Source: Tubulanus polymorphus
Lineage: Eukaryota > Animalia > Nemertea
DNA: 64,000 bases
Direction of reading: 5' to 3'
Assembly (NCBI RefSeq): GCF_964204645.1
Contig: NC_134025.1
Location: 3,162,001-3,226,000 of the forward strand
The notes under the pieces are model-generated. The model worked only from the letters and a program-made list of their open reading frames with translations, was not told where the DNA came from and made no database searches. Shown in pieces: positions 11,587 through 51,746 of this stretch. The stretch's first letter is position 1. Each line of letters starts with the position of its first letter. The translations under genes and the position numbers were made by a program.

Positions 11587-12338
11587 TTAGCCCATTTGCC
11601 ACTGAAATTGGAGCAAATATTATTGTGAATTCGTGTTTCGGCATTTTCAATAAGTGATAATACTGTAATATAGCAAGTCGTACCTTTAACCCATCTTGTT
11701 CATTACGATTTCCCGCTAATTCTTGTTTCTTTTCAAGTTCTGCTAGCCGTTTCTGCTTTTGTTTTAGTGCTTCGGGATCTTTAATTCCTTTTTTGTCTTG
11801 GTCAGATTTTCTCTTTTCCGCAGCCTCCGCTGCTTGTCGCCTTCTTGTTTCCTGTGAAAGGGAACCCAGCAATTAGTAATCACATCATAAAACCTGCAAA
11901 TCCTTGACCTTCGTAGTTTATACCAGATGATATTTCAGCAATTGCCCTAGTACCCCCTCCCAAAAATATTCTAGCATATTATCTATTAGTGAGGTCTGGG
12001 AATATAAATGAGCGAGTATTAGCCTATTAGCCAGAAAAAGTTGCTTTTTGTGTCAAAATCACAGGGACTTGACACAAAAGGATTTTGACCCCAGCATCCT
12101 AGGTACTATATGTAAAAAGACTTTTTATATATAGTGCCTAGGATACTGGGGTCCTTTGTGTCAAGTCCCTGTGATCAAAATGATTGATACAGATAATGAT
12201 AATACTTGGGCCTGAATTGCCAGAACAACGATTTTTGGGAGGGGTATGATTAAGTAAGTGCATAGCGCAGTAACTTACTGGGTCTGGTTGATCATAATCT
12301 TCACTTGCACCACCCAAACAAGGTAAACACATACCCAT
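11587..12338 (-). CDS. SVIP: Small VCP/p97-interacting protein; exons 12338-12279, 11851-11684, 11601-11587
   Basis: MGMCLPCLGG acylation-type N-terminus, VIM motif RRRQAAEAAEKR, C-terminus GLKWQMG*; 80 aa. Confidence 0.92.
12058..12175. repeat. 118-bp foldback in SVIP intron 1
   Basis: ATCACAGGGACTTGACACAAA...CCCCAGCATCCTAGGTACTATATGTAAAAAG pairs with CTTTTTATATATAGTGCCTAGGATACTGGGG...TTTGTGTCAAGTCCCTGTGAT. Confidence 0.85.
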
Positions 12339-15673: not shown

Positions 15674-16979
15674 ATGGGAAACTCTATAAAACCTCATATC
15701 GAAACAGCCCAGAAAACAGGAGCCTGTCAACTGAGTAAGATGGGGATAAGTGAGGTAAAATTGCAGTAATAATCACCGTAAAGCTTACAAGAATTAATGA
15801 TTTTGATGGAATAATCTTCAATCTACTACTAATCTTCTCTAATCTTCAAACTTCATTTTTTCACTTCATTGACACTACTACAGCATACTGAAGATATATT
15901 CCGAATCATGTTACTGTTGTCACTTATTTGACTCACCACTTTACTCTATTGTCTGTCGCCGAGAGCTCAGAGTGGTGGGTGGACAAATCAAGACGTGCAT
16001 TGCTCTCACACTTCACCCTTGCAGATCTCTTTTTCTATAGCATTCGGCATTTTTATTGTCCATTTCTGTTGTATCTATTTTACAGTTTCCCCCAGAACTG
16101 AAGAGATTGACCAAAAACTTAAGAACACTAGATCTATCAGAAAATAAACTAGCTGAACTTCCCAATGATATTGGATCATTTACGATGCTGAAAAACATGT
16201 CATTAAATTCTAATAGATTAGGTAGGCTACGTAAATATTTTAACAGAATCCATGATGCGATTTTGATATATCAACTAGACTAATTGATATGAATTGTTAT
16301 CTTTTCAGCTGCAATTCCAGAAACAATTGGACAACTAAAAAAATTGGAATCGCTGAGCCTGAATTCAAACCGACTACTTTCACTACCTCAGTCATTTAAT
16401 CAGTTGAACAATCTGCGTAGTATCACAGTTAATAACAATTTCTTAAAAGAGTTCCCGGCTCAACTGGGGGGCCTGAAAAATCTGGACTCTCTTGACCTGT
16501 CTCATAATAAGATAACCGTCGTACCGGATGGAGTGAAACATTTAAACGTGGTTGAAATAAACCTTAATGAAAATCAGGTAGGTATTTCTAAACAGCAGCC
16601 TTTAACATTGTGTGAAATAAACACTGTCAGAAATATATCACCTACAGTTTGGATTCTAATCTTTCAGGTATCAACTTTATCGGAAGCGATTGCTGAATGC
16701 CCGAGATTAAAAGTATTACGTGTAGAAGAAAATTGTCTCGAATTAAGTGCCTTCACGCCTCGTATTCTAAAGAACTCGCAGATTTCTTTGTTGGCAATTG
16801 AAGGAAATCTGTTTGAGCAAAAATCATTTCATAATCTCGATGGATATGAACAGGTTTGATTTTATTATTCAATTCCAGTACTTTTTGCATACAAATATGT
16901 TGATGAATGTTTCTTAAGACATTTCTTCTCATTTCAGTACATGGATAGATACACAGCCACTAAAAAGAAGTTCGCTTGA
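15674..16979 (+). CDS. LRRC57: Leucine-rich repeat-containing protein 57; exons 15674-15754, 16086-16221, 16309-16577, 16668-16853, 16938-16979
   Basis: N-terminus [16 protein letters not shown], LRRs, [17 protein letters not shown]-terminus [13 protein letters not shown]; AATAAA at 16984. Confidence 0.95.
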
Positions 16980-19900: not shown

Positions 19901-20439
19901 AATGTTAAAAAGAGAGAGAGAATAAGTCGTTGAATAGAGATAACCAACCACCTGTTCAATCTACAGCCACCAGGGTTCCAGACAAGTTAAACTAACACTA
20001 GGAAATAGGTAATAGTCACGGCAGACATGAATGAACAAGAGAAGACTTAGTTATGAATTTAGGCAGACAAGTGTGAAACAGTTTTTTTTTCGATACTGTA
20101 AACTAAAACCTTGTATAAGTAGTGACGACGCGTGTTGAAATCTCTCAGTAATTATCCATATCACTTCAGACGACCGATAACCGGGATCTTGAAATAAACT
20201 TCGGTCATCAATATTTCATGAGTAATAAAGTTTGAAATGTATATGCACATGTCATGCCTCATTTGGCTAATTTCTGGGTTCGTTTTGTGGCTAAATCCAC
20301 CCGCGTGCCCAATGAGTCGGCCTGTAAGAGAAAAACATATCCGAAATGATAAAACCAACTCAATCATATAAGAAGAAATGAGGGCTGTTGTTCGTTTTGG
20401 GCGTGCTTCGAACCTATCAATCGATGGTGCAATATCTAC

Positions 20440-21216: not shown

Positions 21217-24200
21217 TCACGAACTAAGTAACTTGTTGGCACGTTTGTTTGCCTCACTGATGCGGTATTCATTAGATGTAGCCTGTAAGAATAACACAGC
21301 GTGACATTGGTTAGTACAAAAAGTCTCGAAGATATCCAATTTTACAAATCCAGATCTTCTTGGTAAAATAATATCAAAGGACATCTTCTTCGAATATCTA
21401 ACATAAATTGATGTTGGCAGAGTGAGTATACATATCTCGTAGTAACATGCACTTGCTAAAGACAATATGTATATTCTAATATTACCAGTAGACTAACGTA
21501 AGAGAAAAAATAATCCATATTGTGCAAACATCTCATTTTAAAGCATATAGCAGTGACTAGATATACGCATTAAATTGAGATTTCATTGCAGCAATCATAT
21601 GCATAAATATGCAGTACAGGGTTAAGTAATAGCCGCACATCTTGTTATTTACAATAACTGTAGATGATAACTAACACAGATCATTGAAAAACGGCATCAA
21701 ACAGACAGTTCATCCAAGAAAAACCGATCCAAAAACAAGTGCAGGATTTTATTCAGACGACAGCAGTGAAAATACAGTAATAGAAGCATTGGAACTCGAA
21801 AACGTCAGTTGTTGTATAGATCATTCCCAGTGGACCGCCGTGTCAAATGTCGATAGCTCATGTATAAAACATGGCGTTAGTGCTGACTTAGTTCTGCATA
21901 TACACACAATACAGGATATAAAACCATTTAAAGACATTGCCAGCGATAGAATCAATTCCCTGATGATCAATCTCTGATTGAAAAAATAACAACATTATTT
22001 ATTTGCATGCACGGGTACGACGGATACAATGCGCATACCCAGGACTACGATATCAAAGTCTCCTTCTGAATGGTTATCAAATTCTACACATCGGTTATAT
22101 TGATATTTATCAAATATTCAGTGATTCATGCAGTTAGACATCATGAATTTCTATCAATTCTAAACACGAATGATTTATAATTGCTTATAGCAATTGCTGT
22201 TCTACGTGCATGTACCAGCATTTATCTAAACCACTCAAAGGTGAATTTTGAAACAAAACTTCTAATGAATTTTTCAAGGATTCTGACTGAATACCGTAAG
22301 TTGCAGTTCGAAATTTCGCTACGCTGGTACGAACACAAGGATCCCATCATCGAATCTATTCACCTCGTATAGATTCAGATTACCTCGAACAGCGAAGTGG
22401 CACTCACTCATTTCGCAAATCTTTTAATGGCTTGAGTCGGTTGAGTGAATTTTACGTAACAGGAGATTGGCAAAATGAATGCAATACCGATGTACATTAA
22501 GCCTGATCTGATTATTTCAGACATGCTATTTATTACCTTCTGGTTAATCCTGTCAATTTGTTTATTCTGAGAACCGATCTCGCTGCCCATATCTATGGCC
22601 ATGTTACGTAGATTGCCAATCATACCGCTAACTTCGGTAATATTCTGCTCCATTTCATCTTCACGTGCGTCATTCGTTACTCTACAAAACAACAAAATCA
22701 TCTGATAATGCAATTGATTGTAGTGACAAAACATGTTAAAATCAGTTGACATTTTCCACAAAATCCTTTTATACATCTATGCATGAGGACTGATAAGATT
22801 AAGATGGCCACCAATAGCCAATAGACTAAATACTACTCATATTCCAGAACTTAAGAAAATGTTGAATAAAATACTAGCTCAAGGAGACTTTATTTTGTAT
22901 TCTTAATATTCTTAAGTGTGGGATCTTTTATATAAATCATTTGAAAATCTTGGCTGTTAAAAAAGGCAGAATTTTTATCAAATGTATCCACAACACGAAG
23001 GGGCTTTCACTCGACAAATGATTAACAAAAGCAGCTATTGCCTGTATATAAGAGGTACTAAAACCAAAAGAAACACATCTAAGGCAAAGTCGAGCTTATG
23101 TCACTTTGAAGATTCCGTGTAAAAATTGAATTAACATCGTCGCATAACGGAGCGATGATTAATTAATTTGATTAGATCAGGCTTAATAAACCCCTCCCCC
23201 CGGGCACAATTTTGACGCCGTTATAATGTAATTAATACACAGCCTACTTAAAGCTTGCATCATATTTCAGCCGATGATACAAAGCAATACGACGACGACG
23301 ACGACGAACGGATGAATTATTATCAGACGAGATTGATTTTCTGTATTCGTCTTAAAGCACGCAGCGAGAAGCTTTTCAGTTAATTGCTCGGGCGGAAGAG
23401 TGCGTGCTTCATTCAGTATAAGGCTTATAGAGTAAAAAGAGAAACTAATCACGGCACCATCTTGACACGGCTCACATTACAAACATACAGATGTTATCCG
23501 TCCGGACGACGCATGAAAACAACATCATCTCGCGATGTTTTACTGAAGTTGTTTTTTATTTCTCTCGCGATGACGTGAAACAGTTCGTGAATTACGACGG
23601 AAATCGATGCAGATAAATAGAAAACCAGTGGATTACAAACCGTGTAATAAAACCACCGCTCGACTGCATTCCGTTTCCTGCATCCACCGTGATTCTCGGT
23701 CCATCCTGATTTACTTGTCCGTCGTCGTTCGCTTTCCAGGTAGCGTTATACGCGGAACCTTTCTCGAAATTCTTAGCCCTGAAAATAGAACAAAAACGTC
23801 TTCTTACACGCGGCATATCACTTGTTAGTCCGTTCTAATTTGGCCCGCACCAAATGGACCTATTCAGAATGGACCAAGTTAATACTCAAATGATTATCAC
23901 TGGTCCAACTGCTGCACACTGTGATTGCCAGACAATCGAAGCAAAGACTCCATCACGAATGGATGAAATGATCCATTCAAAAATTTAGAACAGATCTTGA
24001 GTAGTATAAGTTGGTCGGTTTAGGGAAGTGTAATGATTACACTAAGTGCAATCAATACACTCCATGGTCGGTTCTAAGAGGGAATCAACCAAATTAGCAC
24101 AGACCTTTTGCTAGAGCGGACACATGCTCGGTCCATTCTTAAAATTGAAGCGGATTAAATCTAGCAAATTCTAAGTTATGTAGTGGCTATAGTGACTGGG

Positions 24201-27200
24201 GAATGAATGATATTTCTTACTTCTTCGGTATGAAATGTTCTAGTCTCCTTCATCGGACCCAGAATCAGAAATTCATGATCAATAAAATGAAGCAATTATT
24301 ATCAGTTGGATAAATGCTATTAATCAAAACTTAAACATCTTTCATTTGATAGAATTCTTGCAATTTTCATGACAACTCAGCTTTACTAAAGACATGATTA
24401 ATCGTTCTTCATCTCATACATGAACCATTTATCCCGAGTTATACCTCTTCCACGGGAGAACACAAAGGCCGCAACATTTTTCTAGACCCTCTAAATTTTT
24501 CTCAGCATCTTTCATATCCTGATTAATCTGGTCCATTCCTTCTTCAGCGCGATCCAATTGCTCTGCAAGAAAAAGCAACAACTCGAATGAAAGATTACTC
24601 GAAATGATTCGGATTTTTTTCCCCAATATCCATTAAGGGAATGGCGTAATGAAAACCTATAACTGTCAAATATACGAATGATGATAATAAGAATCGAATA
24701 TAACCACATATCATAGCGTGAATGTCAAGAGTAATTACAAAATGAAGGATAATTATCTAAAGCATCCTCACTATTATATTTCACTATTTTCTGCTGGGAT
24801 TTTGACGAATACCGACAGAAAACAGCATGAAATAGTATCGTTGAATGCTATCATATTTTGGTTCGATCATTTCCCAGGGGTGGATCCAGGGGTAGGCTTT
24901 CAGAGAAGCACAAAGAAATGAAAAGCTGAAAATGGGCAAGTTTCCACGCAGAGCGCTCAAGAAGGGGTTTGGAAAATTTTGAAAGTTCAGTTTACTTTAA
25001 TGCAATTTTCAGGCATTTGAGTGACATAAAAGAGAATATAAGCTTAAACTTGTTCAATCAGTTATGGGTGGAAAAATTGCTGTCATTTTTCAAAAGGGCA
25101 CAGAAAAATTGGGAGCCAGTGTTTCCGCCAGAATCCACCAGTTTCCAATATTCTAACGTAACAAAGATACCGTTAACATTTGTCTAAAACCCGATCGATT
25201 TGATTTATACCCGATAAAAATGTTCTAAATGCGAGTGCGCGGAATATTCATCCAATAAGTTCATATGAATCGTAACCCGTACCAACCTACGATTAAAACT
25301 GCTAAACATCACGACATATCGACCTACACAGGTTTACAATTACAATTATTCTATTTTTACAAATTCAATACAAGCAACTCTTGCTATGTTTGAAATATTG
25401 CAGCTATAAACGATAGAATGTACAGTAAAAGGATGCTACTAATTTCGCAAGCCATCCGGCTTATCACTTCATGGGTTTTTACTCACCGCCATGTTCAAAT
25501 TAGACATGCATCTTTATTACCCATATATTATTGGATATGAAGTAGTATTAGTGAGATGAAGTTACGACTATAATAGCCAAGTTGTCATTCGGTTTTGTCA
25601 TTAGGATCGACATAATATTATTCCTCTCTACGCTCCACATAATTCAGCATCGAGAGGATATTGTGCATTGCGACTACAAATCAATATTATCCATCAGTCT
25701 AGACAGGAACCAGGCACTGGAAATATTTGCTTTTTGGAACAACCCTTTTCACTAAAACGCCTAGCGCTTTCTCTTGTGAAAGATGTTGAGTATGTATCTA
25801 AGAAGAATGTTTTCACGATAATGTTTGAGTCCTCGATATCAGAAGACCTTGATAAAAAGCATTATTCGCCGTGAAGAGACTGAAGAGATGTTTCATTGTA
25901 ACCGATAAAATCTGTACTCCATCTAGTCTATATACCCATCACCATGACGTCGTCAACGCGAATTCATGGCATCTTCGAATCGGAATAGAATTTTCAGACG
26001 TCGAATCCCATGAGGACTAAAACATTAGCGGCAAGTACGTATTAGCCATAAAATAGCATACGTTGTTACCATGGTTCTCTATTCACTCGTAATAAAATTT
26101 GTAGCGCAACATTTTGCAATTCATTCCGTATTACGCCGACGGTCACCATCAGCCAGAAATAAATTCTCCGAATGACAACCACATGAAATCATCGCGCGAT
26201 TCTTACCTCCTTGATGGTCCAACATTTGAATTGTTTTGACACCTACATCCTGACTCTAAAGAACACAAAATAGTTGACAACGTTGAAACAAAGTGCTCAC
26301 AAAATAAAAGCATGCGTAGTGAAATTTACTGTTTGACGGACAACAAATGAGGTTATTGCGAAATCTTTCAATTAATAAAAACATTCAAAGAAATCACTGA
26401 CGGTCCAGTTCTACAGTTCGACAGTCGAGATTTGATTCTAGGGTTGAAGAATACGAAATGTGAAAACTGCGGAACTGGCGTCGAAGAAACATGATTTTCT
26501 TTACAAATATTTTGATTTAACAAGTACTCATTGAAAAACGTTAAGGAAATTAATAAACTTATTTTGTGCGGACCAGGAAAAAAAATTCCCTGGAATAAAG
26601 TGCTATAAACGAAAGCATGCATTAGATTTTAAACATTTACTTTTATCTAAAAAATACAACATCGATCGATATTTTACAACGGAGAATATTAAGTTGTCAG
26701 AAGCGATAAAAAAATCTGTAATATTTCTTGTTCCCGTCCTATCAGCGAAAAGCGCTTTTTTCCCGCAATATAAATGTCTACTCGAACTACTCAATCTCGG
26801 GATTTCACCCATAATAAAAAAGCAGAAATTTCATGGCTTCTGACAACTGATGACATTCTACAACACTTATCCAGTGACATAGTGTGTACACATTAAGATA
26901 ATATTCAAACCTACCTCCTTGTTCATCTAACATTACCAGGGTACGAATACCCGCTTCTTTACCCTAATATTCATATTCATCAAAGTATGTTTAATTCATT
27001 TCATCTTCACAAGTATCGCATACGCTACTCATTATCAATGTTTTACACTAAAATCTGGTGAATGCTTGATACCACATCACGAGTTACACCATAATACCAC
27101 GTTATAGTATAGATACTTTATCGCTCAGATTCCTAGACACCGAAGCATGAAAATTTTATACTAAAATTAGACAGCTCTCCAGTTCAATAATATTCTATGC

Positions 27201-32201: not shown

Positions 32202-35200
32202 AAGCACTCGTGTTTAATGATCCTGAATAAATGAAGCATACACTCGGTGTATTATATCGCAGTTTATTATATACGTCAGTCGTGTTAACTTACCTCTTCA
32301 CATAATGCCAGCATACGACGAGTCGTCTCCAATGACTGAAAATATAAAACACATCGGTATCAAAAACGTGAATTAAATACTGAATATATCGGTAATAATC
32401 TACTAATCATACATGCAGTTTATAATGACAGTCTAACAGGCTCGGACCAGACCCGAGTCAAATTTGGCCCGTAAGTGAATCACTCACTCATTACTAAACG
32501 ATGCCGCAGCAAGCGAGGTGAGTCATTTCCAGACAGTTTTTGGTCAGGCCAAACAGGCTCGGACCATTATGACACCTACGCGATCAGTTTGGCTCCGGTC
32601 AAAAATGCTTGTGCGATCGGGGCTCAAATATTGCTTAAAGAACTATTAACCCTTTCAGTGCGTCTACACCGCAGTGCAGTGTATAAATCAGTGATGGATT
32701 TTGCTAGTACACCGCACTGCGGTGTATTGATGTAATTAGTAATTTGTAATTATCTCTATTGAAAAATGGCAGCGAGTGTCAAACATAGTGAAATACTAGT
32801 AACTAACGATACACCGCACTGCGGTGTAGACGCACTATAGTGGTATTCCCATTGTTCAACACACTAGGGTGGAATTTTTTTTAGAATTTTCAAATTTTCT
32901 CCAGCACTATAGGGTATATATTAGTCAGCACTGAAAGGGTTAAGCTGAGCATTGGTATATACAGAAATGGGTAATTATGAAATGTTGATTAAAGAGAGTA
33001 AGGGGCTATGGCTAATGATTTGAAGTGATGTAACCCTTAATTACGAATCAATTCTACTGATATCAGATTCAATATACCGATTCATGTTGTACTCGATAAG
33101 TTTTGGAGCTATGTAATTAATTTTCTGCCAACGTCCCATCGCCCATAGTCAATGTCGTAATTAGTGCATCTACGAGCGCGTGATTTAGTGCAAATCGCTC
33201 GGTTACTGTCAGACACAAGACATCCGGAATAAGAGATGACGATTCTATTTCTGTCTCCGGTATCAGCGGGATTTAAAACGATCGCAGCGATTTCGGATAT
33301 TTTAGGAATGTTACGTCACAGCGTGGTCCAAACTGATGATTCGTAAGATCAGTTTTTCAAGAATGCTTTTTCAATGAGTTTAAGTCAATCAGGTCATTAT
33401 TTTGTCTCTATTTTTTAGTCCCACTTTGAAATTCCAAGTCAGTCGTCATTTGGATAAATTGTCAACATAATGATGACCAAAAGCCCAAATCTTTATCACC
33501 AACCAGACAGTAAAATAGAGTTCGGAAATATAGCGACTTTTAGACTAAATTGAATTCGATCATTCTCATTGGTGATCAAGATCAAGGTCATCAAATGAAA
33601 TGCTGAGAATCTTTGACCATTTCTGATCTAAGAGCGCTCTCCGCGTTCAAGCATTCTAAGTAAATAAAAACATCGGTACATTTCCGGCGGGGAAATTGAA
33701 ACCTAGATCGGGGAGAACAGTCTCTCTGTTTTCTATCCTGTTCGGCTGAAATAACTTGCAGACGAAAAACGGATATGCGAAAAGAGGATTGATACTCGTA
33801 ATCATTGATCTCATATCTGACGTTTACCGCGGAGTGTTGAATATTAACATCGAGAGGATTATCGCGACCTCTTTACATTACCATATAGAAAGAGACAGTC
33901 AGAGATTTCATCATTCATCGCAGTCGACAAATATCATTATACGATGAAAATAATATATATATATATACATGAAAGATGTATCGCTTGATCGTCGGAGACG
34001 TTTCCAAACTTACTTCAGTTGTGCCATCGTCGATCTGTTGTTGAAGTAACTCGCCGGGTGATAAATTAGCGTCGTGTTCCCTTTTCAAGCGTTCCTCCTC
34101 GGTCTCCTTCGGTTCCTCATTCAGTAATCCACTGAGACCCGGCACTTCGAACACCATTATCGAATAATAGCTTTACCACAAATTACGGAATTACGATTTC
34201 ACGATATGCCTCGAAACGCGCGGGTTTTTCACTCTAAATCTACAATTTCATATCCTCGCGATCTTCCGTTTTTGATTCTATTCCATTTCCGTCGATCTTT
34301 TCATTATCCTTTTTTTTTTCGAACGAAATTCTTCCGCGTTATTTCCTCTCGTCGCGACACATGCTTTCAACGACGACGACGACGACGAATATTTGTGCGA
34401 TTGCGCGCGCGTGAACCCAAACTAAAACGGACGTAGCGACGACGACGTTGCCTCTATGCGAAGTTGCACATTCAAATGAAAATCCATACACGACGAGAGA
34501 AGGCCGATCTAATGAGACCCTATCAGCACGAACCCGCGAACGACGATGCTTTGCGAGCCGGTTGACACGATGCTTCTAACGTCGACGCCGTGTGTGACTC
34601 GATAGCTGCTGCATATTCGGTGAAACACGAGCAGCGAGCGACATGATTGTTTTAAAATTCGCGTATGAACGTACACGGGGGACGTGTCGTCTCACATGGC
34701 AGAAGATATCGCCGCGGTGTTTCATCTATAATTTATGAAACGAGCCACCATCAGTATTCACGAATATAACATTCTAGAAACAGACTGTAGAGAGCTAGAA
34801 ACTCGCCCGGTATCAATTAACGATGTTAATTCAATAATTCATGAGTATGTGGACCATGTGTGAATACACTAATACAATAGATAACTAATGAGACGAGTCC
34901 GGTGAGTGTCACTTCATAACCTATAGGACCGACCATCGGGCTAATTTCATCGACGGAGAGTTTGAAGATGAATTTCGAGATATGCGAAAAACCCTACTAT
35001 AATCAAAAATCTCAAAAGGATCAAATGTACTTTGAAGATGCGAATGGAATGTAAATAGATATATCTATATCAAATAGGTTTTTTTTATGGGGGAAAGCCT
35101 TAAGTAGCTATGGCAACGAAGGTCATAACGAACGACTAGGAGAGGCCATTTATCAAACAACTATGCTCATGTAATGACCAATTTCGTCTGGGAAATGGGA

Positions 35201-37359
35201 TGAATTCCCAATGTTCAATAGCCCCAAAAGTATTGCGCTAATCACTAACAGTTGTATATTTACGACTCCGCTAAGATTGCTTATTTGCTCCAACAACGAT
35301 CTATCATTGCTACGATCATTTTGATGATCGCGAAAATATCCGCATATCCTTCATATTATTATTAGCGAACATTGTAGAACATTCGAAAATAATAAGCTTC
35401 ATGAAATAGTTTCCTGTCCGTATTGAAACAATAATAAACAGTAAAATCCTTCTAATCTTTGACGATGACTGTTAGGCTCTAGTTGAAATGTCCTAAAACG
35501 GGATACCGGCAAGGCTACTGAGGGAAGGGAGGATTCAGCGATAATCCACCAGGATCAATAGTGGTGCTGGGTTACCGCGCTTCCCATACACTGAGGGAGA
35601 AAGGCAATCTTATATTTATCCGATGACTTCGCATTTGGAAGCCTAAAAATCAAGTTCAAATTTCATTGAAGATGAACTGATTTTCACTATGAATGACCCA
35701 CTGTTTTGTTGCGCCATCTGGTGGTGCCCGCATCCCATTGTACTAACTACTAGCGCAAGGAAAACCATATCCGATTATCTTCTGGGATTCGAAATTCAAC
35801 TTATCGATTCATATTCTGAAATTTTACGACTTCAGAAAGATTCGTACCATTTCGGAAGCGCTACAAGCCAAGTCTACTCACTATCAGTAGTGGCCACATC
35901 GGAAAGTGGTAAAATTTCATAATGTATTAAGCGATCAAAACCGGGCATCCATTACAGTATGACTGAGACATTTGACGAAGCCAATCTGAAAAGTACAAGC
36001 TTTATCGCAAGGCTACACGACTGATGGATGAGTATTTCTGTATTATTCAAGCATTAGTCTCACGACGGATATGTCACAATATGCATGTCGGGTAATACCT
36101 CCAATCATTCAAGGCAGCAATAACATAAACCATAAATCTTTATTGTTCATACATATGAAATATTCATTCGTGAAATTTTCCAATTTCATATCGGAAACTG
36201 TCAACCGAATTCATCAAAAACTGCATTTTAACAGATACACGCGTAAAATATCAATTTGAGCCGACATGAAAATTTAATTGGTCGAAATAATGGTAGAAAT
36301 AACGGAGCGACATCGCAAGCAACAATACGATATTCGAAACAATTTAGGCAGCATCTGCATAAGCAGCAATAAATGTAATTAGTTATGCACATGTTTGGTC
36401 CATTGGGATATATGTAATTTGTAGAACAACTAAATGAATACTTGAGTATGAGAAGGGTATGATTAGAGAACGGGTCAGATGACTGCGCAGACCAGTAACA
36501 CCTCACTACGTCCATATTGCGCAAACACAGAGGAATTAACGCTACGGAAATAATCGTAACATTATTCAGATACGAATTGGAATAACTAGTGATTGAGATG
36601 TGAAGTTTCTCGGTTGTTCATTCATGAGCGCCGTGAATCTAGACTGTATCACGGTATCCGCAGATTCCATCAGGATTATCACCATATATCTTCCCTATAC
36701 CGAGGTCATCTACAGTACATTCCATACGAGATAAGTACGAAAAGTTCATCTGTATCTATTCACTTTTTATAGTCTTTACGCAATTTCTAAAACATATATT
36801 CTATAACGTGACTAAAAGACAGCAAAATCTATCAATTTATACTTCAAATGATAAACAAATATAGGCGAGTAGCGCACAGCTGTGTAGAATTAATTCTCAT
36901 TTTCATGATTTGCGATGTCATTAAACTGTATTGAACCGACACCTGTTGGGAGGAAATTAGAGTAATCGATCGCATTAGTGATTATTTCCATCGACAGAGC
37001 GCGCCACTGGCTAGTCACGCGTACATATCGAACGGAATGATCGAGTTACGAATGACGTATGGCCGATACTCGATGATAGATCGCTGCAGGCAATTAACTG
37101 ATCTGATTCGTCCGCAAGAAAACACGCTTCGAACGGAGGATAGAACAGTAGTAAATTGCGGGGAACTCGTTTCATACGAGAATTCACCATCTCCGACAAT
37201 GCTTCAAATAACATATACCTATATAATCCCTTGGGCTGAATATTCGAAAAATAGAACGCCCAACATTTAAAATTTCTCACTTACTTCATCAGTAGTAGTG
37301 TTCATTTTGAGCTGGAGCTCAGCCAGCTCGCTACGCATTTCATCATCAGTCTTCGACAT
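21217..37359 (-). CDS. SNAP25: SNAP-25/SNAP-23 family Qbc-SNARE; exons 37359-37285 (or 34157-34014), 32335-32294, 26963-26915 (or 26255-26207), 24562-24445, 23778-23641, 22681-22537, 21282-21217
   Basis: [24 protein letters not shown], palmitoylation cluster [21 protein letters not shown]...[34 protein letters not shown]. Exon sizes 42/49/118/145 match my recollection of vertebrate SNAP25. Confidence 0.95.
26207..26255 (-). CDS. SNAP25: SNAP alternative exon 4b ([16 protein letters not shown])
   Basis: tttag acceptor, gtaaga donor, 49 nt, phase 0 to 1, paralogous to 26915-26963. Confidence 0.85.
26915..26963 (-). CDS. SNAP25: SNAP alternative exon 4a ([16 protein letters not shown])
   Basis: attag acceptor, gtaggt donor, 49 nt, canonical SNAP-25 sequence. 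Confidence 0.9.
28228..28515. mobile_element. piggyBac-type MITE, copy 1
   Basis: TTAA target duplication, TIR CCCTTTCAGTGC, three internal palindromes TACACCGCA(G/C)TGCGGTGTA. Confidence 0.88.
30851..31108. repeat. Minisatellite, 39-bp unit x ~6.6
   Basis: Unit CCCCTGGATTTACCCCTGAAACAGGACTGATATATCTCA. Confidence 0.95.
31492..31623. mobile_element. Short MITE-like element
   Basis: Imperfect TIR GGGCCCGGTTCCATAGTC / GACTATGCAACCGACCCC. Confidence 0.5.
31951..32013. repeat. (GA)n microsatellite
   Basis: Directly visible. Confidence 0.95.
32157..32197. repeat. (AT)n microsatellite
   Basis: Directly visible. Confidence 0.95.
32650..32939. mobile_element. piggyBac-type MITE, copy 2, inverted relative to copy 1
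   Basis: Near reverse complement of 28228-28515; TTAA on both sides. Confidence 0.88.
34014..34157 (-). CDS. SNAP25: SNAP alternative N-terminal exon 2b ([10 protein letters not shown]...[20 protein letters not shown])
   Basis: ATG plus 47 further codons ending at a phase-0 GAA|gtaagt donor, in frame with exon 3; CpG-rich DNA upstream at ~34200-34720. Confidence 0.8.
37285..37359 (-). CDS. SNAP25: SNAP alternative N-terminal exon 2a ([25 protein letters not shown])
   Basis: tttcag acceptor (exon begins 37384), ATG at 37359, phase-0 GAA|gtaagt donor; resembles SNAP-25 MAEDADMRNELEEMQ. Confidence 0.88.
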
Positions 37360-41850: not shown

Positions 41851-42389
41851 CCCACATGGTTGACATATACGCTAAACGAGTTTTGACATGTTGGCTTGGT
41901 GCCTTGAACATCTATGACTAAGATATCTCGTTTAGATGAAAAAGGATTAATTAATCTCGGATATAGAAGTGTTAAATTGTTGTATTCAAGATGGGAGTTC
42001 AACATGTTTCTGAATCTGATGTCGAGGTAGCAAATAATGTGAAAACTTAAGAAAATGACAGAAGTTTGATCGAACTGATTAGTAATTATCAAGTTGAAAT
42101 TCCCTGTAGATTTGAACATATAGTAGCTATATTCATACTGGTATCAAAATACTGTATGTTAGATAAGGGTTAAGGTCAGTTTAGGCTCCATTAGATTTAC
42201 CCAACAAAGTAATTGAGTGAATATCTTTAGCAGTTTGTAGTGATTATATTATGGTTATAGCCATGGCCTGATTAAAAACCATCAGTTTGGATGGGAGTGA
42301 ATGCAGTTTTAATTGTCTCTTACCTAGAATAGTGGAAAGTTGACCTAGACTATATTTCTAGCCGTTATATATTGTTTCAGTCAGTTAAG

Positions 42390-45300
42390 ATGTCAAAGTT
42401 GAAAGATAATAACTGTGATCTTTGTGATATTTCATACGTAACTCGTGAAGTAAGTATTCAGCTTTGAAATCATCAACAGAGTTGCGTAACATTCTCTGCA
42501 TCAAGAGTTTAACTAAAAACATTGCTTGCTTCACAGGAGCTGACTGAACATTATTGGTCTTTGATGCACCATATCAAATTGGAACAACGCAAGAAGTAAG
42601 ATAGAAAATAGTTCGAATCCGTTTCGATTTCATAATTCACGAAAAACGTTCGATATATTTCATTCTTGTCGAATTATTTCAGGGATTCCGTGCACTACTG
42701 TACTATTTGTTACGCGTCTTGTGAAAATTTGACCGAATACAGCAAACATTTAAATGGCGACCAACATCGCAAGGCGTTATTAGAAGAGAGAAAAGCGAAA
42801 CTCAGAGAAAGGTAATTTTGATGATAGTAATTTGTATAGCTCAGTTTTCCATGTAAAACAAAAGTTTAAATGCGCTTCCTTGGATTAAAGGTTGAAATGA
42901 GTGCAGAACATTTAGGTTTTTATGAACGTTTTGAAATGAGTAAGTGACATATTGAACACAGTTTGCAGAGAGTCGATGCACTTATTCCAAAGTCTAAGAG
43001 CGATCCGCGAAAACCTCTCCCGCCTAAATTGACGTTTTCAATTTTGTATTTTCAAATCGTTTATTCTCGATTTAGATTTGGTTTGTATCCTTACTAAATG
43101 AAATGGTTATTTTGAATTATTCAGTGATGGAAGTAACAGCAACGTTCAAACCGATGATTTAGATCACGCCGGGACGGATGACCGATCGAGACCAAGATCG
43201 AGGACATCTAATAGCACCAATTCTGATTATGCGTATAGTAGAACAGGTTGGTTATGATATCTCTTTAGTAAGCTAATAGTAGATACACTCATCGGAGTCA
43301 TAGAAGAATAGAATAATGAAGATGAAATGTAGAATAGATAATCAGGGTGGCCACTGACCTAGAAAACCTGGAAAACTCGGGGAATAAAAAAAAATCAGAA
43401 GTTGACCGATTCCGCAAAAAAACCTGGAAAATTCAGGGAATTCGAATATATTGTTGACAACATGTTTCTTTATAGATAAGTGATTCATGAAAATTGTAAC
43501 TTTTGAAACTGAGAAATTCTTTGAAAAGTGCAGAACACACAAATATAAATGAGTCATAATTTTATGAAAATGTGTCAAGGATTTATCCAAAGCCTAACAC
43601 CTGTACTCTAAGAGGGGATGAACCCTAAAAAAACTGATAATGAGAATTTAGATAATGATGATCATTCTGATAATTTAGTCCGAACAATAATAATATTACT
43701 AATAATACAGAAATAATGATAATAATTATAATGAAAACATTTTGGACTCTCTCAAGACCCTCAGATGTGCTTTAAATCTTATTATCTGCTTACTAAATTT
43801 GATTCTAATTTTCAATTGTAAATCTGAAATTGCACAAATGAATATTTCTAGGTGGCTCGACGGAGCGTTCCCATCCTTACTCCGGAGGATCGTCGTATCG
43901 TAATCGTTCGTTCGAAAGTCAAAACCAGGCGGCGACCAACGACAAACATTATCATCATCATCACCACCACCGCTCCTATTCAAACCGATCGCAGAATTCG
44001 CAGATCGACGAAAATTATCAGCACCATCGTTCGTCGTCGCACCGGCCGCAGCAGAACAACCCGAAAAGAGGTTTCAATAATAAAAAACGAGGCAGAGGGA
44101 ACCGGAGAGAGGGAAATACGTGGCACAGATATAACAGGTGGACGTACCACACAACGGGTAGAGACGCACCTAACGATCTGTATGACGGTTATTACAAAGA
44201 TTGTAATAAGCAGAGACAGTATTGGAATAATGATGATTATCCGATAGATGGCGAGTCGTTTACTAGCGATACGACCGAATTTATACACGGATTTGATAAT
44301 CATTCGGTCGGAGATGAGGTCATACCGCAGCATCGCGATCACTCGCGGTCGAAATCTCAAGAAATGATGGTAGATTCGGTCGCCGTTTGTCAACCGGAAA
44401 CGCAGCAAAGTGTTCCTCGCAGTAGATCGCGATCGCCGTTGAAAATGAAAATACCGAGTCTGTTAGACGCGCCGGTGAAATTGGCCAGCGGTTACGCGTC
44501 GGTGAAATGGCCGATCGGTTACGACGTTTCGACTACCGAGATCGACGAGACGCCGCGCGAGGACTGCGGAAAAACGTTGTTGGACAAAGCTGAGAATTTG
44601 TGTAAAACGTTGAGAGAAAAACGCGAACAAGCGAAGGCCGATCGGGAGAAACGCGAAAAACAGGACGAAAAACGACAGCAACACGACGAATTAGACAAGA
44701 AAATTCAAGATTATTCCGACGTTTGTCAGTCGAAGATCAAGGGTATTTTGAACGAGACGATGGACACGACGGATTTAGGAAGCGTGACGACTTTAAACGA
44801 GACGACGTCGATACGTTTACCGACGTCGAAAGAGAATTTAACATCGCTCAATCAGAGCACGGCGACCGAAACATCGAGCGTTTCGTCTCCGTCGACATCG
44901 ACGACCGTCGGTAAAACGTCGACGAGGAAACATCCGGTAAAAAGCGTCGATTCGGCGAAGGTTAATTTCGTCAAACAAAACGCTGAACCGATGAATAAGA
45001 CGCAACTGATGAAGATGATCAACGCGCCGAGGAGTTTGAAAGAACGGCGACATTTGGAGAAGATTTTAGTCAATCGGCCGAAGAAATCGTCGCGACCGAA
45101 ACTGAATCTACAGCCGCAAGTAGAAGACTGTCAACCGGTAGAGAATGTGGATGTTGAAGAATTGCCCGACGAACTGCGTTTGAAGGTGTGTAGAAAACTT
45201 TGTAGAATATGATAAGTGCAGTAGCTTAATTCGTCACTTATGTCATCACTATTGTTCAGTCATAATTCGTATTTTCATGATTCAATTCATTAAGTGTAAG

Positions 45301-48300
45301 TCGTCTTTGGGATCAATCTGATCGTCACAACTACAATGACTTCTGCGAGTTTGACTGTTTATTTTCGTTTAACTCGCGCGTTATTTTGTGTCTATCGTGT
45401 TAAGGTTGAAAAGCTGTGCGATGTTGAACCGTTGGATTGCGACAGCGATACTCTTCTAGCTCAGTGTTCAGATCTGATCGATTCCAACAGATACGGCGGA
45501 TCTGCTTTATCCGAGAGTCAGTCAAAACGTCGTCATTCTCTGACATCACCTCCGGTATGAATCGATCATTACTAGCAGAGCTACATTTTATCTTTTTCAC
45601 TGTTTAGTTTACAGATTTATGTTTTTTTATTTAAGGTTTCTAGCTTTTCGATGGACACTTTGAATAAAAAGAAAAGAACAGGCGAGTACATGTAGTGGTT
45701 TGTGATACTTTCCTTCCCTGTTGCTGAATATAAAGTAAAGATTTTTTTTTTGTTATTTGTTTCTAGGTTCGTCATCTCGAATGGATATTTCAATGGAAAT
45801 ATCACGCTCTCCATCTACGCCTAGTACAGTGGTTGACACGGGTTGTGGTGAATCTGTTATTTCTGTGAAACAAGAGCCAGTCTGGGTGCCTGAATACTCC
45901 GTTATTCATTCTACAATTCCGCCAAAAATGCCAGAAACAATTCTACCAGCGGATGTATCTTCGAACGTCATAAATCAACAGCCACCTGTAACCTGTGCTT
46001 CTGTCAATGAGAATCCTGATACCGTTCAAAATTCTCCGATACCTCAAATGCCGCAGATCGCTTCGAATATAATGGCTAATCATCCAACATTCTCTGAGCT
46101 GTCCGTGCTCAACAAGGCAACGTCAGTGTTAACCATGTCTGGCAATAATAGAGGTAAATATCTGTGAATTGCCTGACAATAACTCGATACGATATGGTTC
46201 ACGCGCGACAGCTTTTTGTGAATCAACAAACTTCAATGAAAAACCGGTTTTACTCAATTGTTTACAAACTCCTATCATATAAAAGACAAATTTCATTCAT
46301 CTGACTTTTGAAAAGTCTTTATCTGATGATTTAAGGTTTAAAGTAAATTTATTTAAGTCATAAAAATTCCTGACAATACCTTAAAATACTCGAGTGTTTT
46401 GCAGGTTTATGTTCTTTATTCCACTCGGTTAAGAATGGATATTGATGTCCTGTATTGTCATGTTTTAACATGTTTGTACAAGTAGAATATCTCTTCATGT
46501 TGTCATCGAGATGGTTTTGTGTTTTGTGAAATGTGATGTTTCGGAAATTTCAGGAAATCTAGATTTACAGCACATAGATCCACCGACAGCGATGAACACC
46601 TCTCAGGATTCCAATCAGTCGATGAGTCAGGTTTTACAGATTACGTTACGAGAGGAACAGATTCGCAACAATCTAAATGTTATTCATTCTCACGTCGATC
46701 GCTGTAAAACATTACTACGCGAAACACAGAAAGAAATTGAATACTTCACTAATCTTCATGAATTTGTAAGTTTAGTTTTACTGTCGAACCTTGTTACAAT
46801 GAACAAAATGTTCTTTATAATGGACAGTTTGTTAGGTATCATATCATTACTTACCATCAAAGCTTTTAAGGCCTATATACAGACAGCCTCTTAGTTTAGA
46901 TACTTAGTCACGTCCTTTGTGATGTAGGTACGTACCTCTCTTAAATTGTCCTTTATGCAGGTGCTGCCATAAGATAAGTCCAGTTTCTATCAAATAAGTC
47001 TCATATCCAGAGTGAAATTATTGAAATTTTTCCTTTGAAGAAACTCTTGGTCTGAAATATCGGATAAAATGTTATGTCTAAGGTAACTTCCATTTCTATA
47101 CACAATATAATCGTTGCTATATTGAGAATTTTTTCCTCATAGTTGATAAAAGAAGAGGTCAATCTTAGACAACAGAGGCTCAATATCTTAAAAGGTTTGT
47201 CCGCATTCGAATTTAGAAGGTTCAAATAAAGAAATTAGCAGATTATATTTTTAAAATATTCATTTATTTTGCAGGAGCTGTAGGAAATGCGAGTACCTCG
47301 AGTATTCAAACGCCGATATTAATCTCATCACCTCAGACCAACCGAGCTATACATGATGATTCTATAACTAGTCAGTCTGCTAATGATAATACACTGCCTT
47401 CAGCTGAATCTAATAATAATAATAAAAACGTCACGATGGAATATGTCGGTACATTACAATCACAAGTGGCGGCTGAAAAACTACTTCACGAACTGTCTAG
47501 TAATTCTCAGGAAATGAAGAGTAGCACTCCTCAGCCGGGTGTGTTCGCGGTTCCCGAACCGGTTCTCTCAGATATAAACACCGATACCGAGCTGAATCGA
47601 GATTCCACTTATCTTAAACCAAAAAAGAAGCAAACGAGCGTCCGATCGAAATCGACGGATTCTTCGATGACCGATGAGTCGAGCGCGTCGACTTCGTCGT
47701 CGACTATTACCAAGAAGAAGCAATCGAAAAAGAAATCCGATAAGAAGAAACTCGAAAAGAATATGAAGTTGCAGAAGAAGAAAAAGAGTAAAAAGGCAGC
47801 GAAAATGAATAATGATGACGATAATGTTGATATAAGTTTTCTCTACCAATCCAGTTCAGCTACGGATACCGATAGCACCGTTCAAGAAAAAGCTGATTCC
47901 GAAAAACGAGCCGATTATTCGTCGGATATTTCACGCGGCGGTGAATCGAGGAGTAACGCAGACATTCCTCCCGATATGGCATTAGAGATATTATCTGATA
48001 AGCGCTCGCATAAAGAAAAATTCAAGGCTATTCTATTAGACAGTGTAGATACTACTATGCAGGTAACTGTTCAATTCAGTTAAGATTAATCTGACGTATG
48101 ATATTCGAAATAGATTTTGATAAGTTCGTTTTGAATAACTGAAAATTGATAGAAGTCTGGACCCGGTTCCACAGTTGTGAGTTAAGATTTGACGCTGACT
48201 CTAATGAACTCATTAAAAAATGAACTAATTTATAACTCATTAACACTAACTCACAACAGTGGAACTGAATCCAGATTTTATTCGTTAAATTTTCCTACTG

Positions 48301-51300
48301 CTGGTTTTTTATAAGCGTGTATAATCGAGGCATCGTGCGGGACCAGGAATTTCAATATGTCGATGTGAATCATGAAAATTAGAAATAAAACTTCTAGTTT
48401 CGTTCTCTTTCAGATATCGAACACGTGGGAAGACCCGGATTGTATATTCTTGGATAAGATCAGTCCGTATCAGATGGAAACAGACACTTCAGCTTTAAAC
48501 ACGCCGACATCAGTCATGTCATCGCAGCTCTCGTCCGTCGGTAATTCAAGCCGATACCCGGTAGTCGTGTTGAACCGTATCGACGAGGCCAGTAAACAAG
48601 AGAAAATAGCTCAGTTCAAAGACGACCTGCTCCAAATACCCGATTCTTCCCCGAATACGACGAAAAAGAAGCGCACGAAAAAGAAAAAGAAAATTCAAAC
48701 AGATTCTAATATGGGCTCGACGTCGAGTTTGGCCGATTCGAGCACCGAGTCATTCAACGATATTTCGCGTCATGATAGCAGAAATGCGGGGAATTTGAAA
48801 GTATCGCGGGACTTACTGGTGGAAGCTGGCGTGATTTTCACGAATTCCGACGCCGAACAGATGTTATCTGATTCGACGGTGATTAAATCCGAAGATGATG
48901 ATCACAGTATTGTGTCGTCGTCTAACTTAACTGAAAAAAATAGGTAAGTGTCTGGTCTGTATTCAGCTTTCTTCAAGCTGAGTTTCTGCAACATTTTTGT
49001 TAACCATTGATGAAACACTGTCCGTGTTGCAACAATAAGAATGAAAAATAGAGACTGAGATGTTTCCTCGATGTTGGTTTATTTCAATATTTCAACTATA
49101 TCCAAACAATCATTCTCGGGAAGATACTCGGTATTTGTAAAGATGACTATTAAGATATATAGTCGAAAAGTTGAAATGAACTACCAGCTCGAGGAAATAT
49201 TTCATTCACTATTTTCATTTTTTTTGTGGGATTTCATTTTAACGTATGTTTTATTGTTTATGATGTAGTTTACAGCTTGATTTGTCAACTCCTAAATCTG
49301 CTACAAAAGTCATCCGTAGTGTAAAGGAATCTTATAGTTCACTTGCGACACCTGGAGAATTTCTCGGTCATTCGATGCCGATATTCTGCATGCAGGTGTC
49401 CGGAGGTTTTCTTTATTCATGTTCTCAGGACGCATCCATTAGAAAATATGATCTGAAGGTAATATAAACTCTTAACAGGATTTTAAATTTTATTACAAAT
49501 TCAGGGGCTGCTTGTACTACTAATACGTGAAACAATCTTCTTTTTAGACTCATGCATGTGTTCTCAAATTTTCCGGCCATACAAAAGCTGTGCATTGCTT
49601 ATCCGTCACTAGTAGTCCAGAGGACCTGCTTTTCACGGGAGGATTCGACAATATGCTCATCATTCATAGTTCAAAGGTTGGACATTGCTCATTTAGAAAT
49701 ATTGTCTTTGAAAATGAACTTCTACGCTGCAGTAAGTGTAAATCCAACTGAACCTCTTTATTTCAGACCGCAACGATTCTAGATAAGTTTGAAATGGACT
49801 CGAAGCTACACTGCATGCACAGTGCTTGGGGTAAATTATACATAGGCCTCGAAGATGGCTGCGTTCATTGCTTCGATTTCAAGGTAAGAAGGAAAACGTA
49901 GACACTGAAATTTTCAGCCGTGATTACACAAGCGTTTTTGACCCACGCTAAATTTAGCCTTGCCAGATAAGGCCACTGATGCCAAGTTGGTCCATGCATT
50001 CGTGGTATGTTCAAAAACGTCATCTGAAATTTGATATTTTCTCCTTTAAAACTCATCGAAAATCAAACTCCTTATATCCAGGAATGAACAATCTGTTAGG
50101 ACCATAGACTCTAATCATCTCCATGTAATCAACCTCGAAGTGATAATTGATTTTTGTTTATTCGCATTTCAGAGTAATTCAGTAATTGATACATTCAGAT
50201 GTTCGGATCGTCCAATCAGCGCGATCACGTCGACGCGAGAAGGAATACGCAGACTATTATTGGTCGGCTCATACGATACTCTTATTACTGTACGCGACGC
50301 GAACTCGTGGTTATTACTGCGCACAATCGAAGCACACGACAAAACACCACTCAGTATTCGGGTAATTCATCATCTTCAGGGTGGCCACTGACCTGGAAAC
50401 CTGTAATATTAAGGGAATCTTGAAAATCTTGAAATAAAATCAGGGAAAACTCGGGGAATTCGAATATTGTTGCAAAAAAAGAACCTGGAAAACTAAGGGA
50501 TTTTGTCTATGGTATTGACCACACGTTTCTTTATCAATTCTCCTGCCATTACGCTCATATTATTCGGGGAAAACTGGGTAATTTGTAAATGCAGTAAAGT
50601 GGCCACGCAAATGATGTTGTTAAATATTAATTCTATTCATTCGATTAAATGGTAAATGATGATTTCAGGTTCACGGTTCTCAGATATTCAGCACCTCAAA
50701 CGATTACACCGTAAAGGTTCATGATCTTTATGTAAGTAGAATCGGATGACATCGAATTTCTGGTTTCAAAATGACACACACTCGAGTTTTAGATTATTAT
50801 TATAATGATAATTATTATAACAATATACACACGTTCATTACTTACAGACTGCTGGTCATGTATATACATTCCCTAAATTTCCCGGAGCTATGACATCATT
50901 AGCTGTACATAAAGATGTTATTCTAGCGGCTGGTTTTGATGGATTGATTAGGTGCTACGATATAAAGGTGAATTATCTCAATCATCCTCGGTGAATTTCT
51001 CAAGTTCGTAACGATATTCTTATGACATAATTATACACTCTTTCCAGACGTTTCAATTACTCGCGTTGTATTATGGAGCGGGGAAGACACTCATATTAGA
51101 TATGCTTGTCTATAATAATATGGTTAGTCATCAAAGCCAATTTTAATTCGACAATTTATTGAAATGTGACATTGTACAAAACTTTCATTGAAACATGATG
51201 GTTTGTTTGTAGATATTCACGGCTAACAGACATGGCGTCATCGAAGCTATCAGTTTCAATCCTAAAGTTGTATTTCCGTGTAACGTAAGTATTTTTGAAT

Positions 51301-51746
51301 TATTCAGTGATTATCTATAGCAGGGGTTTGAGTGATACGAATAGAAATTTGATGAATATGCGAAAAATCCTGGTATTTTGTCATTTGAAAAAATGTGAAA
51401 AATTGTAAGGATGGGAAAAATGAAAATCACGTTTATCAATTTGACCCGTGCTATAGTGAATTAGAACGATCATCAGCGTAATACACAATATTGACTGATT
51501 TTCTGAAATTTTCATGATTTACGATATTTCCAGGTGATCGGTTGCAAGTTGAAATTCGGTTTGACCTGCGATCTGTTATACCACGTTACAGAAGCTCATC
51601 TGCCCGCGACCTCCACCTCAACCGGTGTCAAGTGTCCGTGGAATGGTTGTTATTTGATGTTGATATTGGGTTCTAACGCCAGAGAACATATCGCTCATCA
51701 CATCGAAGATCTCGATGATGATTCGCTTTCAAATTTATCATCATGA
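42390..51746 (+). CDS. ZNF106: Zinc finger protein 106-like; 21 coding exons: 42390-42449, 42537-42595, 42683-42811, 43125-43246, 43852-45185, 45405-45554, 45636-45681, 45767-46153, 46554-46765, 47143-47194, 47275-48062, 48414-48943, 49269-49458, 49548-49676, 49767-49883, 50173-50361, 50669-50731, 50848-50967, 51048-51122, 51213-51284, 51534-51746
   Basis: Two N-terminal fingers (CDLC...EHYWSLMHH; CTIC...KHLNGDQH), long low-complexity middle, coiled coil, WD40 repeats (LLLVGSYDTLITVRDA), two C-terminal C2H2 fingers. All junction phases are compatible. Confidence 0.9.
43343..43590. mobile_element. CAGGGTGGCCAC-type non-autonomous element, partial (second copy 50377-50606)
   Basis: Both copies start CAGGGTGGCCACTGACCT and contain GGAAAA subrepeats; the second ends in GTGGCCAC. 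Confidence 0.55.
48156..48274. mobile_element. Short MITE in a ZNF106 intron
   Basis: TIR TCTGGACCCGGTTCCACAGTTGTGAGTTA / TAACTCACAACAGTGGAACTGAATCCAGA. Confidence 0.6.

What the first reader, a model, noticed from the sequence alone, without database searches (positions are those of the whole stretch)
26207..26963. One SNAP gene with duplicated exon 4 encoding SNAP-25-like and SNAP-23-like SNARE helices
Seen: two paralogous 49-nt exons 659 nt apart, each with intact splice sites and the same phases, encoding [16 protein letters not shown] and [16 protein letters not shown]. Both keep the zero-layer Gln, and including both shifts the frame. Known: human SNAP-25 reads [16 protein letters not shown] and SNAP-23 reads SQDAGIKTITMLDEQ. 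Vertebrates switch exon 5a/5b rather than exon 4, and Drosophila uses separate SNAP-24 and SNAP-25 genes. Inference: this animal makes regulated and constitutive exocytic SNAREs from one locus by mutually exclusive splicing. I do not recall this arrangement being described.
Basis: partly seen in the sequence, partly recalled or inferred. Interest (0 to 1): 0.85.

Follow-up and report, generated by a model that had tools for sequence, protein, structure and literature searches.

The report
Ancient swappable exon in SNAP-25 gene
This ribbon-worm gene for the vesicle-fusion protein SNAP-25 carries two interchangeable copies of one small exon that recode the patch where, in mammals, the calcium sensor docks; database gene models show the same pair from snails to hagfish, and jawed vertebrates likely split it between their SNAP-25 and SNAP-23 genes.

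Summary
In detail: two 49-nt exons (minus strand, 26963-26915 and 26255-26207) have AG/GT ends and equal phase, and including both or neither gives a premature stop. The pair is not new to databases. Five RefSeq Tubulanus polymorphus isoforms map letter for letter onto the window, two with 4a and three with 4b. The same swap occurs within one gene in another nemertean, 11 mollusc genera, hemichordates, echinoderms and two hagfish. The scan also noted it earlier in a sea urchin and an arthropod. Exon 4 encodes residues 39-54, part of the synaptotagmin 'primary interface'; 4b changes K40, L47, V48 and E52. Added here: the gene also has alternative first and last coding exons; a hagfish gene keeps both exon-4 forms; jawed-vertebrate SNAP-25 is 4a-type while 11 of 13 SNAP-23 rows score 4b-type; the flanking genes look like LRRC57 and ZNF106, the neighbours of mammalian SNAP23. 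No RNA from this species was obtained, so tissue use is untested. The Q40 state is also the cnidarian state, so 'SNAP-23-like' may partly mean 'ancestral'. Nine topic searches found no paper on this exon pair.

The parts
37285..37359 (-). Coding exon 2a (ATG, 25 codons)
   Evidence: Exact match to residues 1-25 of all five RefSeq isoforms; GT donor
34014..34157 (-). Candidate alternative first coding exon 2b (144 nt, ATG to GTAAGT, phase 0); not in the five isoforms held
   Evidence: Second-best hit of an exon-2 profile; ORF; 7 of 8 residues shared with the Lineus alternative N-terminus; its end resembles the N-termini of four gastropod sequences. Splicing not shown.
32294..32335 (-). Exon 3 (42 nt)
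26915..26963 (-). Exon 4a (49 nt; K40, L47, V48, E52; SNAP-25 type)
   Evidence: used by RefSeq isoforms X2 and X5; weakest pyrimidine tract of nine acceptors, 10 of 20
26256..26914 (-). Intron between 4a and 4b (659 nt), with two GCATG motifs at 26620 and 26315 and a 20-nt inverted repeat (26692-26711 with 26829-26848)
   Evidence: a role in exon choice is untested
26207..26255 (-). Exon 4b (49 nt; Q40, I47, Q48, H52)
   Evidence: used by RefSeq isoforms X1, X3 and X4
24445..24562 (-). Exon 5 (118 nt, cysteine cluster); no second copy seen
24221..24247 (-). Optional 27-nt microexon (9 residues) after the cysteine cluster
   Evidence: In RefSeq X1-X3, absent from X4 and X5
23641..23778 (-). 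Exon 6 (linker)
22537..22681 (-). Exon 7 (second SNARE helix)
21217..21282 (-). Last coding exon 8a (with stop)
   Evidence: RefSeq X1, X2, X4, X5
20259..20321 (-). Alternative last coding exon 8b (with stop), a diverged duplicate of 8a
   Evidence: RefSeq X3; 26 of 60 bases shared with 8a
15674..16856 (+). Neighbouring leucine-rich-repeat gene, tail to tail (first exons only; read as LRRC57, name recalled)
   Evidence: Pfam LRR hits; ORFs; orthology not tested by a named search
42333..51743 (+). Neighbouring zinc-finger plus WD40 gene, head to head (read as ZNF106, name recalled)
   Evidence: Weak Pfam C2H2 and WD40 hits below curated cut-offs; ORFs; orthology not tested by a named search

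Best explanation
The window holds the SNAP-25/23-family gene of a ribbon worm, with two tandem same-phase copies of exon 4 that public gene models use one at a time, and the choice likely tunes how the fusion complex binds the calcium sensor synaptotagmin, with 4a likely favoured in neurons and 4b in other cells. Shown: the two exons, their exclusive use in RefSeq models, the stop on double inclusion or skipping, and which residues change. From the literature: exon 4 covers K40, L47, V48, D51 and E52 of the SNARE-synaptotagmin primary interface. The core-facing positions G43, T46, L50 and the zero-layer Q53 are unchanged (layer assignment recalled), so both forms should still zipper a four-helix bundle. 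4b drops the K40 and E52 charges and changes L47 and V48, which is predicted to weaken or retune sensor binding. Inferred: 4b is the default exon (stronger acceptor) and 4a needs activation; exclusivity is probably enforced by regulation plus decay of frame-shifted products, since a 659-nt intron is too long for steric exclusion. The pair is probably old, as the same residue signature separates the two forms in nemerteans, molluscs, hemichordates and echinoderms.
For: All five RefSeq isoforms map with 100% identity to the window. 19 of 20 chosen isoform pairs from 19 genera are identical outside exon 4; the exception is a truncated sea-cucumber record. In 17 invertebrate genera, with the a-form defined by K40, sites not used for the definition also split: residue 41 is E in 17 of 17 a-forms and D in 16 of 17 b-forms; residue 42 is A in 15 of 17 against V/I/L/M in 16 of 17; residue 52 is acidic in 17 of 17 a-forms and in 8 of 17 b-forms; mean identity a-a 0.87, b-b 0.76, a-b 0.63. 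PMC8967716 (passages) lists K40, D51, E52, E55, Q56, D166 as interface residues and K40Q, L47I, V48T as the only SNAP-25A/SNAP-23 differences there. The four gastropod sequences in S8 Fig of a brain-transcriptome paper all read 2b+4a+8a (PMC4342343 supplement). Among 40 unnamed, mostly short-contig proteins, 4b went with 8b 20 times, 4a with 8a 10 times, mixed 8 times, unclassed twice; these rows are neither independent nor phased.
Against: No spliced read from this species was seen; RefSeq isoforms are automatic models whose read support I could not inspect. No tissue data. SNAP-23 carries K40Q/L47I/V48T and still supports calcium-triggered fusion. Amphioxus (3 species, one cluster), tunicates and cnidarians have neurons yet show only a Q40 form; the chiton shows only 4a in 6 of 6 isoforms. 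The Lymnaea record P0115 joins 4a to 8b, so the coupling is not strict. The two GCATG motifs are borderline (P about 0.05, looked for after the fact).
Confidence: 0.62

Rival explanations
1. The exons are real and exclusive, but the difference is not about synaptotagmin or neurons: it tunes pairing with different syntaxins or VAMPs, or developmental timing.
For: Residue 39, near the helix core by recalled layer assignment, differs in this species. Animals with only one form still have both neurons and secretory cells. Lineus has five exon-4 versions and Haliotis, Mytilus and oysters three, more than a two-state switch needs.
Against: The most conserved a/b differences include residue 40, named as an interface residue, and 47 and 52 are invariant or always acidic in the a-form only.
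Confidence: 0.25
2. Exon 4 duplicated independently in several lineages, and the 4b/SNAP-23 likeness is retention of, or drift back to, the ancestral Q40 state rather than descent from one ancient pair.
For: All 6 sponge, placozoan and cnidarian exons tested score b-like. Amphioxus and tunicates show one form. Extra lineage-specific copies show that the exon duplicates readily. Only 16 residues carry the signal. SNAP-23 of Huso and Scyliorhinus scores a-like, and marsupial and skate SNAP-23 are closer to hagfish 4a (12 of 16) than to hagfish 4b (10 and 8 of 16).
Against: The same K-E-A versus Q-D-(V/L/M) signature recurs in protostomes and ambulacrarians. Hagfish 4a is identical to jawed-vertebrate SNAP-25 exon 4 although the rest of that gene lies outside the SNAP-25 clade.
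Confidence: 0.3
3. Exon 4b is a decaying or never-used copy that gene predictors picked up.
For: No RNA evidence from this species was obtained here.
Against: Intact frame and the stronger acceptor of the two; invariant T46, L50, D51, Q53, G54 in 17 of 17 b-forms; 25 of 40 unnamed, mostly short-contig full proteins of other species carry a non-K40 exon joined to exons 3 and 5.
Confidence: 0.03

Closest known systems
RefSeq models of this gene (XP_074654281.1, XP_074654290.1, XP_074654299.1, XP_074654308.1, XP_074654317.1; Tubulanus polymorphus isoforms X1-X5)
   Same: Same locus, same two exons, same alternative last exon and microexon.
   Different: Automatic annotation without interpretation; candidate exon 2b is not among these five isoforms.
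Vertebrate SNAP-25a/b, exons 5a/5b (PMC2581893, passages)
   Same: Tandem-duplicated, mutually exclusive exon that recodes part of the first SNARE helix.
   Different: A different exon: 5a/5b covers the end of the helix and the cysteine cluster; here exon 4 (residues 39-54) is doubled and exon 5 is single.
Jawed-vertebrate paralogues SNAP-25 and SNAP-23
   Same: 4a matches SNAP-25 exon 4 at 14 of 16 residues; 4b shares Q40, K45 and I47 with tetrapod SNAP-23 (12 of 16). The flanking genes resemble those of mammalian SNAP23.
   Different: Two genes instead of one. 4b also replaces E52, which SNAP-23 keeps. The last exon of SNAP-23 does not match the invertebrate 8b class.
Hagfish SNAP-25-like gene (Eptatretus A0A8C4N3V5 and A0A8C4N0W4; Myxine isoforms X1 and X2)
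   Same: One gene, two proteins identical except for exon 4, one K40 and one Q40.
   Different: A vertebrate gene; no alternative first or last exon among the 4 full-length records seen.
Drosophila SNAP-24 and SNAP-25 (two genes; recalled, and a title in the reference list of PMC12857021)
   Same: Two forms of the same plasma-membrane SNARE.
   Different: Separate genes. SNAP-24's exon-4 region was not examined here.

Membership tests
SNAP-25/23 family (Qbc SNARE) | SNAP-25 family domain and full-length similarity to solved SNAP-25 | tested here: met
   PF00835 at 67 bits, cut-off 25; PDB SNAP-25 E 7e-68 over residues 4-208
SNAP-25/23 family (Qbc SNARE) | Two SNARE helices with zero-layer glutamines and a cysteine cluster between them | tested here: met
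   Alignment to PDB chains; Q53 in both exons
Tandem-duplicated mutually exclusive exons | Adjacent homologous exons of equal length and phase with splice sites | tested here: met
Tandem-duplicated mutually exclusive exons | Double inclusion or skipping breaks the frame | tested here: met
Tandem-duplicated mutually exclusive exons | Transcripts carry one exon or the other | tested here: inconclusive
   RefSeq models do; no RNA run of this species could be laid
Tandem-duplicated mutually exclusive exons | Both copies conserved in relatives | tested here: met
   17 invertebrate genera and 2 hagfish
Vertebrate SNAP-25a/b switch | The duplicated exon is exon 5 | tested here: not met
   The doubled exon is exon 4; one exon 5 found
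SNAP-23 orthologue | Groups with jawed-vertebrate SNAP-23 in a tree | tested here: not met
   With exon 4 removed, the nemertean protein lies outside the vertebrate clade (98/97), so it is a co-orthologue of SNAP-23 and SNAP-25
SNAP-23 orthologue | Sits between ZNF106 and LRRC57 | tested here: inconclusive
   Mammalian order from gene lists in PMC8355708 and PMC10384200; the window's neighbours have fitting domains but their names are recalled
Neural versus general isoform switch | Tissue-biased inclusion | not testable with these tools
   No RNA holder listed; only indirect hints from other species

The most novel reading that the evidence does not exclude
The 4a/4b pair dates to the common ancestor of protostomes and deuterostomes, where one gene at the ZNF106-LRRC57 locus made both a neuron-tuned K40 SNARE and an ancestral-type Q40 SNARE. 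It survived into vertebrates, as hagfish still show, and after gene duplication jawed vertebrates gave 4a to SNAP-25 and 4b to SNAP-23. The SNAP-25/SNAP-23 split would then be a splice switch turned into two genes.
Probability: 0.45. Interest if true: 0.7.

Novelty: new variant of a known kind. Interest (0 to 1): 0.5.

Why it matters
The exon pair itself is already in automatic annotations, so finding it is ordinary. What may matter is the history and the position. If the partition reading holds, it explains where the neuronal and general plasma-membrane SNAREs of vertebrates came from, and it dates a tuned synaptotagmin-binding surface to early bilaterians. It also warns that work on snail, slug and sea-urchin synapses has usually treated SNAP-25 as one protein, when these animals can make several. 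The pair gives a natural experiment on the primary interface: two proteins that differ only there.

Tried and rejected
No whole genome is held, so exon order in other species and a second SNAP gene in this species were not checked. No RNA holder listed. The 19 differences of X1's spanning contig all fall outside the exons, but only about 0.45 were expected there, so this is uninformative. The idea that SNAP-23 also inherited the invertebrate 8b last exon was not supported: 5 SNAP-23 rows scored +1.1 to -16.8 where positive means 8b. The hagfish dual gene could not be assigned: 603 of 1000 bootstrap trees join it (with one unnamed row) to SNAP-25 and 343 to SNAP-23; p-AU 0.446 for the SNAP-23 grouping. 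No competing long-range RNA pairing around the two exons stood out among the 25 longest of 92 inverted repeats; the 4a-4b intron folds better than 20 of 20 shuffles (z -2.7), without conservation data. The ESM Atlas gave no answer for the neighbours, and PDB holds no named match for the LRR gene among the 60 of 281 shown. PubMed 10327594 (cockroach SNAP-25 'sequence variability'; title only, from a reference list) is not held and may describe the insect form of this event. Both forms within one named arthropod or annelid gene were not obtained. No structure or complex was predicted.

Full report
OBSERVATION. They share 29 of 49 bases, and joining both or neither to exons 3 and 5 gives a stop in exon 5. 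A profile from 45 exon-4 peptides of other species finds these two (53.4 and 49.1 bits) and nothing else above 0 in the window. A single contig of DNA run X1 spans both.

THE GENE. A search with exon 5 (best 120 of 401 hits listed) and cluster look-ups returned five RefSeq isoforms of Tubulanus polymorphus that map to the window with every residue matched. X2 and X5 use 4a; X1, X3 and X4 use 4b. The models also show a 27-nt optional microexon (24247-24221) and two alternative last exons (21282-21217 and 20321-20259). A profile scan found a further candidate first coding exon, 34157-34014, absent from those five models. It shares a short N-terminal motif with the alternative start in Lineus, and the one variant seen in it is synonymous. 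With the tree placing the protein outside the vertebrate clade, the gene is a co-orthologue of SNAP-25 and SNAP-23.

DISTRIBUTION. I picked 20 isoform pairs from 19 genera in which both forms were on record; 19 are identical outside exon 4. They cover two nemerteans, 11 molluscs, two hemichordates, two echinoderms and two hagfish. Lineus has five exon-4 versions among 15 isoforms; Haliotis, Mytilus and oysters have three. Misses: the chiton shows only 4a in 6 of 6 isoforms; amphioxus (one cluster, three species), tunicates, cnidarians, Trichoplax and a sponge show one form, with Q40 in all but one Oscarella row. In arthropods I saw non-K40 forms in a weevil and a lobster, a K40 form in Drosophila and an unnamed model with two exon-4-like stretches, but not both forms from one named gene. 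No jawed-vertebrate gene showed both forms among the 90 of 94 new rows parsed or in three shark and ray clusters; most vertebrate clusters were not expanded.

WHAT CHANGES. Exon 4 encodes residues 39-54 in vertebrate numbering. PMC8967716 (passages) names K40, D51, E52, E55, Q56 and D166 as key residues of the SNARE-synaptotagmin primary interface, and gives K40Q, L47I and V48T as the only SNAP-25A/SNAP-23 differences there; PMC9258623 (passages) says the same. Exon 4b has K40Q, L47I, V48Q and E52H. Across 17 invertebrate genera T46, L50, D51, Q53 and G54 never change. The a-form is more conserved (0.87 against 0.76), and residues 41 and 42, not used to define the classes, split them almost perfectly.

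MECHANISM. Shown: two in-frame alternatives that differ at the sensor-facing residues. Inferred: both form SNARE bundles, and 4b binds synaptotagmin differently. The neural/non-neural reading rests on hints. The four gastropod sequences in S8 Fig of a brain-transcriptome paper all read 2b+4a+8a (PMC4342343, passages and one supplement; 5 of 17 files not searched). In 40 unnamed, mostly short-contig proteins 4b went with 8b 20 times and 4a with 8a 10 times, with 8 mixed and 2 unclassed; kinship and unphased assembly weaken this. The 4a acceptor has the poorest pyrimidine tract of nine, and two GCATG motifs (RBFOX-type; motif recalled) lie between the exons, P about 0.05. Against a clean regulated/constitutive split: SNAP-23 supports calcium-triggered fusion, and animals with one form still have both cell types.

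EVOLUTION. All 6 non-bilaterian exons tested score b-like, so Q40 is probably ancestral and K40 the bilaterian novelty. In jawed vertebrates and lamprey 3 of 3 SNAP-25-type rows score a-like and 11 of 13 SNAP-23 rows b-like; Huso and Scyliorhinus do not (two SNAP-23 labels are mine). Marsupial SNAP-23 matches hemichordate 4b at 14 of 16 residues and 4a at 11. The hagfish dual gene is vertebrate and outside the SNAP-25 clade (100/99) when exon 4 is left out of a 45-row tree, but its tie to SNAP-23 is unresolved; exon 5a/5b isoforms are mixed among the SNAP-25 rows. The window gene lies head to head with a zinc-finger/WD40 gene and tail to tail with a short LRR gene, which I recognise from memory as ZNF106 and LRRC57. 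Gene lists in PMC8355708 and PMC10384200 give the order ZNF106, SNAP23, LRRC57, and PMC4256931 lists the three together (table passages). This fits an ancestral pair split between paralogues, but 16 residues, single forms in amphioxus and tunicates, and unchecked exon order leave independent duplication open. The last exon does not show the same partition.

PRIOR KNOWLEDGE. Nine searches of the open-access library (listings only, some cut to the first 20-30) showed no paper on an exon-4 pair; subscription papers are not covered. PMC2581893 (passages) treats only exon 5. PMC9741552 (passages) has no SNAP25 mention in its main text, and PMC12857021 (passages) reports butterfly SNAP25 splicing without naming the exon. 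The scan noted the same pair earlier in a sea urchin and an arthropod; the sea-urchin note prompted my deuterostome search, which confirmed it in Diadema.

VERDICT. Real, conserved and already annotated; interesting mainly for its position on the sensor interface and for the hagfish and synteny evidence on the origin of SNAP-25 and SNAP-23. Interest 0.5.

Noticed in passing
window 21282-21217 and 20321-20259 (-): Duplicated alternative last coding exons; the same swap is in isoforms of Lineus, molluscs, hemichordates, sea urchins and a weevil, with three versions in oysters, mussels, chiton and Diadema.
   Followed up: partly
window 34157-34014 (-): Candidate alternative first coding exon missing from the five RefSeq isoforms held; similar to the N-terminus of gastropod nervous-system SNAP-25.
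   Followed up: partly
window 24247-24221 (-): 27-nt microexon just after the cysteine cluster; a scallop record (P0103) has a short insert at the same place.
   Followed up: no
window 15674-16856 (+) and 42333-51743 (+): Neighbours look like LRRC57 and ZNF106, the genes around mammalian SNAP23; names recalled.
   Followed up: partly
P0464-P0468, P0471, P0472, P0398, P0474: Shark and ray SNAP-25-like isoforms swap exon 5, although PMC2581893 says the exon-5 duplication was not described in cartilaginous fishes.
   Followed up: no
window 28224-28519: About 300-nt element with terminal inverted repeats and very high contig depth in X1-X3, likely a miniature transposon, in the intron before 4a.
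   Followed up: no
window 30850-31108: 39-nt tandem array, 6.6 copies, 99% matched.
   Followed up: no
window 1110-8123 (+): Recent tandem duplication: two near-identical rhodopsin-family receptor ORFs (2066-3076, 7104-8123) and three copies of another ORF without a Pfam match.
   Followed up: no
window 9800-10114 (+), 11585-11872 (-), 58284-58652 (+), 62796-63209 (-): Exons of a transaldolase, small VCP-interacting protein, two-pore potassium channel and M28 peptidase.
   Followed up: no
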